A DNA stretch of 64,000 nucleotides from Eledone cirrhosa (GCA_964016885.1 OZ024760.1:4526001-4590000); one strand, 5' to 3'. Shown: positions 382 through 60,894, numbered from the stretch's first letter. The notes: generated by a model from the letters alone, not told the origin. Numbers and translations are program-made.

Positions 382-423
382 GCAAATTAAATAAATCAAT
401 AGAACATTTAAAAGACAGTACAG
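382..423 (+). CDS. NASP: NASP exon (KLNKSIEHLKDST)
   Basis: ttccag|...|gtaagt; phase fits next exon. Confidence 0.8.
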
Positions 424-60591: not shown

Positions 60592-60894
60592 GTTATTCCG
60601 GGTTGAATCGGAGGTAACCACAGTAAGTAAGGTACTCAATACATTGCAGAGTATAAAAGTTTTAATATAGATGAGATTCTACAAGACTAGAACCGTTTCA
60701 TTCTTTAGAAATCATCAGGAATCTCTGAGATTCCTGATGATTTCTAAAGAATGAAACAGTTCTAGTCTTGTAGAATCTCCTCTCTCTATATATATATGTG
60801 TGTGTGTATATAGTGTAGTAACTGTTGTACTTGTAACTTCCTCTCACCACCTTCCGTGGGTTTCTTACCTGGTTAAAAACCTGCCATTGTTCAT
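10305..60894 (-). CDS. CCDC17: Coiled-coil domain-containing protein 17-like, about 556 aa, 14 exons: 60894-60869, 52805-52688, 32054-31928, 27958-27784, 22411-22361, 20524-20433, 19423-19358, 17744-17619, 15230-15085, 14131-14079, 13226-12996, 12496-12277, 11406-11308, 10445-10305
   Basis: GT-AG exons join in phase with no stop. Motifs match my recollection of human CCDC17: [29 protein letters not shown] vs [48 protein letters not shown] vs [47 protein letters not shown] vs [34 protein letters not shown] vs QAELFL. The first exon is tentative. Confidence 0.85.
10607..10796 (-). mobile_element. piggyBac-type MITE
   Basis: TTAA|CCCTTTAGCA...TGCTAAAGGG|TTAA. Confidence 0.85.
11308..11406 (-). 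CDS. CCDC17: CCDC17-like exon ([13 protein letters not shown]...RQFYQ)
   Basis: tttacag|...|gtaagc. Confidence 0.88.
11476..11688 (+). mobile_element. piggyBac-type MITE (also 12589-12798, 13310-13693, 16389-16594, 18410-18587, 19020-19346)
   Basis: same TIRs, TSD and core. Confidence 0.83.
12277..12496 (-). CDS. CCDC17: CCDC17-like exon (C2-like domain, [14 protein letters not shown]...ETRKQ)
   Basis: ttctag|...|gtacaa; GW..F...GKF.VP motif. Confidence 0.9.
12996..13226 (-). CDS. CCDC17: CCDC17-like exon ([16 protein letters not shown]...KQFVP)
   Basis: ttgcag|...|gttggt; homology to the CCDC17 C-terminal domain. Confidence 0.9.
14079..14131 (-). CDS. CCDC17: CCDC17-like exon ([17 protein letters not shown])
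   Basis: aaacag|...|gtatta; phase 0/2 bridges its neighbours. Confidence 0.72.
14560..14850 (-). mobile_element. RTE 3' UTR fragment (related pieces at 3085-3330, 9660-9865, 54520-54695, 58040-58102, 58825-59045)
   Basis: similarity to 30570-30857, CAT tail. Confidence 0.8.
15085..15230 (-). CDS. CCDC17: CCDC17-like exon ([21 protein letters not shown]...DQP)
   Basis: coiled-coil; donor gtaagt. Confidence 0.83.
16595..17591 (+). mobile_element. Non-autonomous Helitron-like element
   Basis: 5' TC(TATA)n start, 3' TTAG end with a GC-rich subterminal motif (17563-17580). Inserted between A and T of the MITE sequence GAGTAA|TGTAAAT, no TSD. Confidence 0.72.
16871..17253 (+). mobile_element. 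RTE 3'-end fragment nearly identical to 30480-30857
   Basis: same 3' UTR and (GAT)n tail. Confidence 0.92.
17619..17744 (-). CDS. CCDC17: CCDC17-like exon ([24 protein letters not shown]...)
   Basis: ctctag|...|gtaaga; coiled-coil. Confidence 0.83.
17750..18107. repeat. TA/TG-rich compound microsatellite (similar 59040-59305, 62039-62099)
   Basis: directly visible. Confidence 0.95.
18647..18910 (+). mobile_element. Second tRNA-derived SINE family (related minus copies 22650-22915, 54720-54870; CORE-like SINEs 9255-9385, 19915-20060)
   Basis: TGGCTGAGTGGTTAG A-box, GAGTTCGATTC B-box, GTCCTTGAGCAAGACACTT core. Confidence 0.7.
19358..19423 (-). CDS. CCDC17: CCDC17-like exon ([21 protein letters not shown])
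   Basis: taacag|...|gtaaat; phase 1/1. Confidence 0.78.
20433..20524 (-). CDS. CCDC17: CCDC17-like exon ([30 protein letters not shown])
   Basis: tggcag|...|gtaaag; Y..NGG motif typical of CCDC17. Confidence 0.92.
20590..21190 (-). mobile_element. RTE 3' fragment (older copy)
   Basis: [26 protein letters not shown] plus 3' UTR. Confidence 0.88.
21672..21902 (+). mobile_element. piggyBac-type MITE (also 22478-22962 split by a SINE, 27272-27500, 27500-27658, 56230-56430, 63929-64000)
   Basis: same TIRs, TSD and core. Confidence 0.83.
22361..22411 (-). CDS. CCDC17: CCDC17-like exon ([16 protein letters not shown])
   Basis: ctttag|...|gtgagt; phase 2/2. Confidence 0.85.
23511..23796 (+). repeat. 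Left copy of the 286-bp direct repeat flanking the Gypsy element
   Basis: matches 27144-27429 with 2 substitutions seen. Confidence 0.95.
23797..27143 (-). mobile_element. Ty3/Gypsy LTR retrotransposon, degenerate (5' LTR 26890-27143 TG..CA; partial 3' LTR 23797-23959)
   Basis: Gag from 26821 with CCHC knuckle [14 protein letters not shown], protease ALVDTG (about 26030), RT (DLKSAY, YIDD), RNase H (WCDAS, AELDA), integrase HHCC start. Order PR-RT-RH-INT; frameshifted; integrase core deleted. Confidence 0.93.
23960..26821 (-). pseudogene. Frameshifted gag-pol of the Gypsy element
   Basis: domains split across ORFs 26204-26923, 26086-26280, 25649-25915, 25271-25597, 24970-25311, 24634-24963, 23941-24336. 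Confidence 0.88.
27144..27429 (+). repeat. Right copy of the 286-bp direct repeat flanking the Gypsy element
   Basis: matches 23511-23796. Confidence 0.95.
27784..27958 (-). CDS. CCDC17: CCDC17-like exon ([14 protein letters not shown]...HGHRS)
   Basis: tttcag|...|gtagac; phase 1/2. Confidence 0.8.
28060..28471 (+). mobile_element. Two tandem tRNA-derived SINEs
   Basis: A-box TGGCAGTATCGGT, B-box GAGTTCAAATCC, central GCCTTTCATCCTTACGGGGTCGATAAAAT, (ATT)n tail. Confidence 0.85.
28472..30857 (+). mobile_element. 5'-truncated RTE-clade LINE with (GAT)n tail
   Basis: intact 687-aa RT ORF, 3' UTR and GAT microsatellite tail; no endonuclease domain. Confidence 0.95.
28485..30548 (+). CDS. RTE LINE reverse transcriptase (partial ORF) with PHD-like Zn finger
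   Basis: [59 protein letters not shown]. Confidence 0.9.
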   Translation: MRNNKVDEAVKAKRQAWKEWKNGGSRVHYIETKREARRQVYLARREAEDRKFKHVLQREDQKQEVFKIARQCVRDSCDVIGEKCIRNDKGELALTSAEKKDAWKSHYDRLLNEENAWEEETLPHVDPIEGPAVQVSGSVVSKAIRDMKMGKATGPSGIAAEMLKASGSVGHTITTRIVNQVILEGAIPKDWCSSIIVNCYKGKGDALDRGNYRGIKLMDQVMKVTERVIAQLIRDRVNIDEMQFGFVPGRGTTNALFLVRQLQEKYLAKSKPLYLAFVDLEKAFDRVPRAVIWWALRKLGVDEWLVKAVQAMYRGAVSKVRISNEYSEEFSVQVGVHQGSVLSPLLFIIVLQAITEEFKTGCPWELLYADDLALIAESMVELENKFQTWKQGLERKGLKVNMTKTKVLVSRRENRTQIPSGKWPCSVCRKGVGRNSILCPKCKQWVHKRCSGISGSLIKNVGFTCSSCAETASKQPQETSTTNLWEGPVETVGSFCYLGDRISNGGGCSESTITRVRTGWKKFRELLPLLAAKGFSLRMKGRLYDTCIRTAMLHGSETWALKVEDLRRLERNEACMLRWMCNSNIRERQSIKELRERLSIRGIKCCVQERRLRWYGHVMHMKDDSCIKRCRALEVDGNRGVGRPKMTWDEVIKADLTQLHLSKTMTHDRDFWRHAVIQGTRPPMGTC
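31652..31866 (+). mobile_element. tRNA-derived SINE, same family (also 23110-23345; minus copies 14400-14550, 14855-15062, 19200-19330)
   Basis: A/B boxes and central domain. Confidence 0.85.
31928..32054 (-). CDS. CCDC17: CCDC17-like exon ([10 protein letters not shown]...[13 protein letters not shown])
   Basis: ttccag|...|gtaagc; phase 0/1. Confidence 0.82.
32134..52570 (+). repeat. 36-bp satellite, about 565 units: GGA[CAT/GAT/GTT]AGTGATAGTGGTGATTGTGAT[GGT/GAT/GAG]GATGAT
   Basis: directly visible; 12-aa periodicity; fills CCDC17 intron 32055-52687. Confidence 0.99.
52688..52805 (-). CDS. CCDC17: CCDC17-like exon ([23 protein letters not shown]...PAKK); alternative acceptor at 52816
   Basis: donor gtgaga, phase 0; weak resemblance to the N-terminal Zn-finger-like motif of CCDC17. 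Confidence 0.72.
53350..53780 (+). mobile_element. Two tandem tRNA-derived SINEs
   Basis: as 28060-28471. Confidence 0.85.
55480..55815 (+). repeat. about 85-bp CA/TA-rich minisatellite, about 4 copies
   Basis: recurring CACTTAAACATGTACACATATACACACC. Confidence 0.85.
56098..57165 (+). mobile_element. Decayed Tc1/mariner transposon interrupted by a MITE (56230-56430)
   Basis: [20 protein letters not shown] and [19 protein letters not shown] motifs; TIR-like TTTGTCCYAAAAGTAAAAG at both ends. Confidence 0.85.
58506..58594 (-). mobile_element. 5'-truncated SINE with 11-bp TSD GATGAGATAAT
   Basis: TSD at 58495-58505 and 58595-58605. Confidence 0.85.
60869..60894 (-). CDS. CCDC17: Candidate first coding exon of the CCDC17-like gene (MNNGRFLT)
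   Basis: ATG..CCAG|gtaaga strong donor; phase 2 fits the acceptor at 52805. Confidence 0.5.

What the first reader, a model, noticed from the sequence alone, without database searches (positions are those of the whole stretch)
382..60894. NASP-CCDC17 tail-to-tail microsynteny apparently shared with human
Seen: NASP (+) and a CCDC17-like gene (-) converge with stop codons only 2.45 kb apart (7852 vs 10305). Established, from memory: human NASP and CCDC17 are adjacent convergent neighbours on 1p34. Inference: the pair may date to the bilaterian ancestor and have survived the heavy rearrangement of coleoid genomes. That would suggest a constraint such as overlapping 3' UTRs or shared testis regulation.
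Basis: partly seen in the sequence, partly recalled or inferred. Interest (0 to 1): 0.7.

Follow-up and report, generated by a model that had tools for sequence, protein, structure and literature searches.

The report
NASP–CCDC17: loosely kept ancient neighbours
In this octopus-like genome the histone-chaperone gene NASP and the likely cilia gene CCDC17 sit tail to tail and are neighbours as in vertebrates, but the pair appears split in an argonaut and a sea anemone, so it is likely a loosely kept leftover of an old chromosome neighbourhood rather than a functionally locked pair.

Summary
Observation confirmed. NASP (+, 16 coding exons, 517 aa) and a single-copy CCDC17 orthologue (-, 14 exons, 560 aa) are intact and converge with 2,452 nt between their stops. 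Vertebrate adjacency is published, from fish to tetrapods.

Ancestry is unproven. The pair ends a run of six genes (REXO1, EIF2B3, GPX4-like, BTF3, NASP, CCDC17) whose human copies, from memory, share one ancestral linkage group; 0 of 6 located control genes of that group lie on this scaffold. Against strict conservation: in Argonauta hians the two genes lie on different multi-Mb scaffolds, in Nematostella 1,415 gene ids apart, and in O. vulgaris 108 accessions apart on one chromosome. No other invertebrate bilaterian could be tested.

The proposed constraint has no support: no RNA run is on record, separate poly(A) signals exist, and repeats sit in the gap.

Best reading (about 0.5): an inherited, breakable relic. 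Re-formed by local rearrangement about 0.35; functionally locked about 0.1. Even if ancient, it is one more of about 600 known conserved pairs. The scan had not noted this pair before.

The parts
382..7852 (+). NASP, last 7 of 16 coding exons: 382-423, 863-945, 1726-1803, 2650-2859, 3418-3459, 5476-5649, 7790-7852 (TAG). The first 9 coding exons lie 0.7-10.7 kb upstream of the window.
7853..10304 (.). 2,452-nt interval between the two stop codons (both 3' UTRs plus any intergenic DNA)
8163..8168 (+). Only AATAAA on the NASP strand in the interval, 311 nt after the stop; candidate poly(A) signal (inferred)
8852..8857 (-). First AATAAA downstream of the CCDC17 stop (ATTAAA at 9134-9139 comes earlier); candidate poly(A) signal (inferred; such hexamers are expected by chance here)
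9056..9234 (.). High-copy interspersed repeat inside the interval (up to 35 other matches in 264 kb)
9660..9873 (.). Second high-copy interspersed repeat inside the interval (up to 31 other matches in 264 kb)
10305..60894 (-). CCDC17 orthologue, 14 exons: 60869-60894, 52688-52805, 31928-32066, 27784-27958, 22361-22411, 20433-20524, 19358-19423, 17619-17744, 15085-15230, 14079-14131, 12996-13226, 12277-12496, 11308-11406, 10305-10445 (TAA); 560 aa
11308..13226 (-). Exons 11-13, encoding the CCDC17_C domain; the O. vulgaris counterpart is predicted to fold as a C2 beta-sandwich
32134..52568 (.). 36-bp satellite, 568 copies, filling CCDC17 intron 2

Best explanation
NASP and a CCDC17 orthologue are intact convergent neighbours here, and their adjacency is likely an inherited relic of an old bilaterian chromosome neighbourhood that came through coleoid rearrangement inside an unmixed block, likely without any function that locks the two genes together. 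Shown: gene identity, geometry, single copy, and the identity of the flanking genes. Inferred: the block derives from one ancestral linkage group (human map positions recalled); the order inside it was inherited rather than re-made; each gene likely ends at its own poly(A) site; and the short gap persists because a break must fall in a target of only 1-2 kb, yet such breaks appear to have happened in close relatives.
For: Vertebrate adjacency holds from ray-finned fish to tetrapods (PMC4082323). Local order is REXO1(+), EIF2B3(+), GPX4-like(+), BTF3(-), NASP(+), CCDC17(-); their human copies lie on 19p13, 1p34, 19p13, 5q13/1p32, 1p34, 1p34 (recalled), one paralogon. The next six genes (Src-like, RPL10, RUN-domain, PSMD14-like, TCP1-like, WASHC2-like) map elsewhere (recalled). 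Of 8 control families from the same group, 6 were located and 0 of 6 are on C21. In Nematostella, BT3L4 is 8 ids and AK1A1 14 ids from CCD17, echoing the octopod and vertebrate neighbours. Both genes share one chromosome in 3 of 3 Octopus species. My rough arithmetic with assumed inputs gives 0.1-1.3 chance human-octopod pairs of matching orientation genome-wide, against hundreds of ancient pairs known to persist in molluscs (PMC3514665) and 275 ancient blocks in a squid (PMC9023564).
Against: In Argonauta hians the 3' end of CCDC17 is on a 7.56-Mb scaffold and a complete NASP on an 18.1-Mb scaffold. In O. vulgaris the accessions are 108 apart; if these run in chromosome order, the pair is split there too, and parsimony would favour a gain in this lineage. 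In Nematostella the genes are 1,415 ids apart. No non-cephalopod invertebrate bilaterian was tested. REXO1 and EIF2B3 are joined to the rest across a 200-N assembly gap. Gene finding in the flanks was a simple exon scan and may have missed genes. The Nematostella BTF3L4 proximity has about a 3-5% chance level.
Confidence: 0.5

Rival explanations
1. Convergence: the two genes shared only an ancestral linkage group, travelled on the same coleoid chromosome fragment a few Mb apart, and a local inversion in this octopod lineage made them neighbours again.
For: Different scaffolds in Argonauta, which falls outside this genome plus Octopus in the NASP tree (84/91, not starred). Accession gaps of 108, 40 and 22 in three Octopus species. 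Far apart in Nematostella. Coleoid chromosomes are scrambled internally and half of squid genes sit in runs of 4 or fewer (PMC9068888). New cephalopod blocks have shorter intergenic gaps than ancient ones (PMC9023564), so 2.45 kb is not a sign of age.
Against: For one named pair the chance of being adjacent and convergent on a shared chromosome is about 0.05-0.17% (assumed gene numbers). RefSeq accession order is not strictly positional (isoforms of one oyster gene are 7 apart). The O. bimaculoides CCDC17 model lacks the last exon, which fits an assembly break at exactly this junction.
Confidence: 0.35
2. One reading: an Urbilaterian pair actively held together by overlapping 3' UTRs, a shared termination zone, or shared germline or ciliogenesis regulation.
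For: Very short gap in a 3.0-Gb genome whose CCDC17 introns reach 20.6 kb. No canonical poly(A) hexamer on the CCDC17 strand in the first 1.1 kb after its stop, so a long UTR towards NASP is possible. CCDC17 is used as a ciliated-cell marker (PMC13096173); NASP's testis isoform is recalled.
Against: The pair appears broken in Argonauta. Two high-copy repeats cover 16% of the interval. Non-overlapping poly(A) candidates exist at 8163 (+) and 8857 (-). In Irimia et al., co-regulated ancient pairs are mostly head-to-head, and orientation was fully conserved for only 15-25% of pairs in other orientations.
Confidence: 0.1
3. Artefact: a mis-join in the assembly, or a mis-identified gene, creates a false match to the human pair.
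For: No short-read contig bridges the whole interval. The octopod CCDC17 is on a long branch, and the atlas feature search ranked NPHP4 C2 clusters first (0.92).
Against: No gap within 100 kb either side; short-read contigs match the unique pieces almost letter for letter; same chromosome in three Octopus species. Of 18 homologue clusters looked up, 7 are named CCDC17 or CCDC17-like and none NPHP4; a CCDC17 profile matches two separate regions.
Confidence: 0.05

Closest known systems
Vertebrate AKR1A1-NASP-CCDC17-GPBP1L1 neighbourhood (Nabeel-Shah et al. 2014, PMC4082323; passages read)
   Same: NASP and CCDC17 are direct neighbours.
   Different: Documented there only for tetrapods, coelacanth and ray-finned fish. 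Here BTF3, not AKR1A1, flanks NASP; a Src-like gene, not GPBP1L1, flanks CCDC17; Vasculin and MMACHC are on other scaffolds.
Conserved ancestral microsyntenic pairs, CAMPs (Irimia et al. 2012, PMC3514665; abstract and passages read, supplement not available)
   Same: Two unrelated genes, tightly linked in distant lineages, with a short gap.
   Different: CAMPs need linkage in four or more lineages; this pair is shown in two and absent in Nematostella. It is tail-to-tail, whereas most CAMPs are head-to-head. Whether it is already in their Table S2 could not be seen.
Metazoan microsyntenic blocks retained in coleoids (Schmidbaur et al. 2022, PMC9023564; Robert et al. 2022, PMC8851819)
   Same: A run of genes from one ancestral neighbourhood surviving coleoid rearrangement; 275 such blocks are known in Euprymna.
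   Different: Those blocks need three or more genes shared with six or more distant species, which was not testable. Neither gene name was found in the supplements searched (one file was cut when stored and tables may use other ids).
CCDC17 family (Pfam PF28455 CCDC17_C)
   Same: Coiled-coil middle region and C2-fold domain match non-cephalopod homologues.
   Different: Octopod proteins are 540-560 aa against 1,320-1,570 aa in oyster, Lingula, Owenia, amphioxus and Sycon; long branch; N-terminal Cys/His motif degenerate.

Membership tests
NASP / SHNi-TPR histone chaperones | Four TPRs, the second interrupted by an acidic tract | tested here: met
   517-aa model with TPR1, split TPR2 around an acidic tract, TPR3/4; PDB hits are NASP only; 88% identical to O. 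vulgaris NASP, whose cluster carries PF10516. A direct PF10516 scan of G000 found nothing, probably because the exon is only 24 codons.
CCDC17 | CCDC17_C domain with a C2 fold | tested here: met
   PF28455 on the 83%-identical Octopus relatives; profile match 88.9 bits; model of the O. vulgaris domain pLDDT 81.9, matching PI3K, DOCK and AIDA C2 domains.
CCDC17 | Coiled-coil middle region with the family's conserved motif | tested here: met
   Profile from 18 non-cephalopod homologues matches residues 68-322 at 44.6 bits.
CCDC17 | N-terminal Cys/His zinc-finger-like motif | tested here: inconclusive
   Cys and His residues are present in exons 1-2, but the profile did not match this part.
CCDC17 | Reciprocal best hit with human CCDC17 | not testable with these tools
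   No human record was in hand. Proxy: 7 of 18 looked-up homologue clusters (of 54 non-Octopus hits) are named CCDC17 or CCDC17-like; the other 11 are unnamed or uncharacterised, with automatic C2- or Velvet-domain labels on some Macrostomum fragments. Two vertebrate clades make it a co-orthologue.
CAMP (Irimia 2012) | Genes are not paralogues | tested here: met
   TPR protein versus coiled-coil/C2 protein.
CAMP (Irimia 2012) | [quoted passage not shown] | tested here: inconclusive
   Linked in vertebrates and here; not in Nematostella; other lineages not testable.
Co-regulated CAMP | Head-to-head orientation with a shared promoter | tested here: not met
   The pair is tail-to-tail.
Co-regulated CAMP | Correlated expression or overlapping transcripts | not testable with these tools
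   No RNA holder listed.
Genomic regulatory block | One member is a developmental regulator with enhancers in its neighbour | tested here: not met
   A histone chaperone and a predicted C2-domain ciliary protein; enhancers not tested.
Metazoan microsyntenic block (Schmidbaur 2022) | Three or more genes, up to five intervening, shared with six or more distant species | tested here: inconclusive
   BTF3L4 and CCDC17 have 6 listed genes between them in Nematostella, NASP is far away; other species not testable.

The most novel reading that the evidence does not exclude
NASP-CCDC17 is a tail-to-tail pair kept since the bilaterian ancestor by coupling of the two 3' ends, linking a proliferation and germline histone chaperone to a motile-cilia gene, and it anchors a six-gene block of one ancestral chromosome that escaped coleoid fusion-with-mixing.
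Probability: 0.1. Interest if true: 0.6.

Novelty: new member of a known kind. Interest (0 to 1): 0.25.

Why it matters
If ancestral, it extends a neighbourhood described only for bony vertebrates back to the bilaterian ancestor and marks a block that escaped coleoid mixing, a small addition to about 600 known ancient pairs. It would matter more only if 3'-end coupling were shown, because convergent pairs are the least explained class. If re-formed, it is a clean example of how shared linkage groups create false microsynteny between two lineages.

Tried and rejected
RNA evidence: no RNA holder listed. Runs X1-X3 cover introns and exons alike. X4, kind not on record, has one contig at depth 31.5 over 7787-8105 and depth 2-4 pieces further into the interval; this may be NASP RNA but shows no strand or joint, so it is not used.

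Outgroup test by accession numbers: NASP ids were found for nine non-cephalopod molluscs and CCDC17 ids for oyster, clam, snail, Lingula, Owenia, amphioxus, Saccoglossus, Macrostomum and Sycon, but no species had both. A main-text search for neighbouring accessions found 0 papers; HGV2 search gave nothing useful.

Supplements: Irimia 2012 none readable; Robert 2022 no NASP or CCDC17, file 4 cut when stored; Schmidbaur 2022 none in 7 files; amphioxus atlas none in 3 files, one unreadable; Bulinus genome none. Unseen tables, above all Irimia's Table S2, may already list or exclude the pair.

Metagenome scan: 80 NASP loci, mostly short transcripts and arthropod contigs; 0 of 80 had a CCDC17 match; uninformative.

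Pfam on single exons: no CCDC17 or NASP family in 14 exons or on the Octopus proteins; the local copy predates PF28455. CARM1 and CLCC1 controls were not found. The RTC_insert hit on C9 may be RCL1 or RTCA.

NPHP4 identity (atlas) rejected. A suspected frameshift in CCDC17 exon 8 was my misreading. The tree used a NASP model with a 1-nt slip and was redone. The atlas look-up of a REXO1 exon was uninformative.

Full report
1. Setting. The window is G000:C21:4,526,001-4,590,000 in a 3.0-Gb genome; C21 is 35.4 Mb. A NASP tree places it among octopods, with Octopus and inside Argonauta (84/91, not starred).

2. The two genes. Seven exons from 382 to 7852 (+) splice in frame to a TAG. Nine more coding exons upstream complete a 517-aa NASP with one inferred GC-AG intron. 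Its TPR2 exon hits only NASP in the PDB and named cephalopod NASPs. On the minus strand, 14 exons from 60894 to 10305 give 560 aa with 13 GT-AG introns and no stop. The model is 71% identical to O. sinensis LOC115223662, which carries PF28455, named CCDC17_C. A whole-library search gave 55 hits. I looked up 18 of the 54 non-Octopus ones: 7 clusters are named CCDC17 or CCDC17-like (amphioxus, Owenia, Sycon, lamprey, lungfish, toad, lizard), 11 are unnamed or uncharacterised. A profile from 18 non-cephalopod homologues matches the coiled-coil and C-terminal regions (128.9 bits). The C-terminal domain of the O. vulgaris protein is predicted as a C2 fold. The gene is single copy. Vertebrates have two clades, as an earlier scan note suggested (e1-7811898), so this is their co-orthologue. 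CCDC17 is used as a ciliated-cell marker (PMC13096173, passage; PMC12832812, passages); a ciliary role here is inferred. The stops are 2,452 nt apart, with no gap within 100 kb either side.

3. What is in print. Nabeel-Shah et al. 2014 (PMC4082323, passages) report CCDC17 and AKR1A1 beside NASP in tetrapods, coelacanth and ray-finned fish, and nothing for molluscs. The convergent orientation in human is recalled. Searches for CCDC17 with NASP (6 papers), NASP with octopus and synteny (1 unrelated paper) and CCDC17 with synteny terms (none of 25 listed mention it) found no invertebrate report; supplements that I could not see may hold one.

4. Other lineages. Both genes share one contig in O. 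sinensis, O. bimaculoides and O. vulgaris, with accession gaps of 40, 22 and 108. RefSeq order is not strictly positional, so the first two say only 'near'. The O. vulgaris gap means tens of genes if its GenBank order is positional, which I could not verify. In Argonauta hians the 3' part of CCDC17, last exon included, is on a 7.56-Mb scaffold and a complete NASP on an 18.1-Mb scaffold; adjacency would need a scaffold break between the two stops. In the Nematostella gene table (PMC10946136, file 2, two searches and part 2 of 77 read), CCD17-like is NV2.397 and HIBN-like (NASP) is NV2.1812; the ids follow the older scaffold order, so the genes are far apart, probably on one chromosome (inferred). 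No non-cephalopod invertebrate bilaterian had both genes in hand.

5. The neighbourhood. An exon scan of 664 kb, with identities checked for most genes, gives REXO1(+), EIF2B3(+), a 200-N gap, GPX4-like(+), BTF3(-), NASP(+), CCDC17(-), then Src-like(+), RPL10(-), a RUN-domain gene(+), PSMD14-like(-), TCP1-like(+), WASHC2-like(+; by eye only). From memory the first six map to the human 1p/5q/9/19p paralogon, with EIF2B3, NASP and CCDC17 all in 1p34.1, and the last six do not. Of 8 control families from that group, 6 were located, on C1, C3, C3/C5, C9, C9 and C27; 0 of 6 on C21 (95% upper bound 0.39). In Nematostella BT3L4 is 8 ids and AK1A1 14 ids from CCD17 (about 3-5% by chance). The pair thus sits at the edge of a block that appears to have escaped mixing. 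This supports inheritance of a neighbourhood, but also supplies a pool in which a local inversion could remake adjacency.

6. Weighing ancestry. With assumed inputs, chance gives 0.5-4.8 human-octopod adjacent pairs genome-wide, 0.1-1.3 with matching orientation. Irimia et al. (PMC3514665, abstract and passages) found 595 ancient pairs, 448-492 kept in amphioxus and Lottia; Schmidbaur et al. (PMC9023564, passages) found 275 ancient blocks in a squid. So a shared pair starts out more likely ancient than accidental. The Argonauta, O. vulgaris and Nematostella results each lower that, and coleoid gene order turns over quickly (PMC9068888, passages; PMC13652810, passages). I put inheritance at about 0.6 in all, 0.5 passive and 0.1 constrained. 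These are judgements, not computed values.

7. Is there a constraint? No RNA run is on record. The NASP strand has one AATAAA at 8163; the CCDC17 strand has ATTAAA at 9139 and AATAAA at 8857, 8563, 8244 and 8234, no more than composition predicts. Ends can be chosen with or without overlap. Two high-copy repeats cover 16% of the interval. Co-regulated ancient pairs are mostly head-to-head, neither gene is a developmental regulator, and new cephalopod blocks are tighter than old ones. With the apparent split in Argonauta, a locked pair is unlikely.

8. Verdict. Real and correctly described; likely an inherited but breakable relic; ancestry untested in the key outgroups; functional claim unsupported. 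New member of a known kind; interest 0.25.

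Noticed in passing
window 32134-52568: A 20.4-kb satellite of a 36-bp unit (568 copies, 94% matches) fills CCDC17 intron 2; the gene is otherwise intact.
   Followed up: no
window 23797-27050: LTR retrotransposon-like element in CCDC17 intron 4 with 167-nt terminal repeats 92% alike, flanked by a 306-nt, 98% direct repeat (about 23511-23816 and 27144-27448), far longer than a usual target-site duplication; a 94-97% copy lies about 10-14 kb beyond the window end.
   Followed up: partly
window 28485-30545: LINE ORF with RVT_1 and PHD-finger matches in CCDC17 intron 3.
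   Followed up: no
L004:2361-5515 and L003 (upstream of the window): Single-copy BTF3 lies head-to-head with NASP, its coding exons 14-17 kb from the NASP start; BTF3L4 is 8 ids from CCDC17 in Nematostella. BTF3-NASP may be the better candidate for a shared promoter.
   Followed up: partly
window 10305-60894: Octopod CCDC17 is 540-560 aa and fast-evolving, whereas oyster, Lingula, Owenia, amphioxus and Sycon proteins are 1,320-1,570 aa; lamprey and lizard forms are also short (667-676 aa), while a toad form is 1,454 aa, suggesting repeated loss of the long tail.
   Followed up: partly
L002:4761-4870: NASP coding exon 4 ends at an inferred GC donor.
   Followed up: no
window 2028-2616: 39-bp minisatellite (15 copies, 98%) just upstream of a NASP acceptor site.
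   Followed up: no
L028, L036 (metagenome contigs): Insect-like host contigs carry NASP as one uninterrupted ORF of about 430 codons, with no CCDC17 match nearby.
   Followed up: no
G000:C3:283.86-283.94 Mb and C5:43.69 Mb: MMACHC-family matches at three places, one with a long stretch and an internal stop.
   Followed up: no
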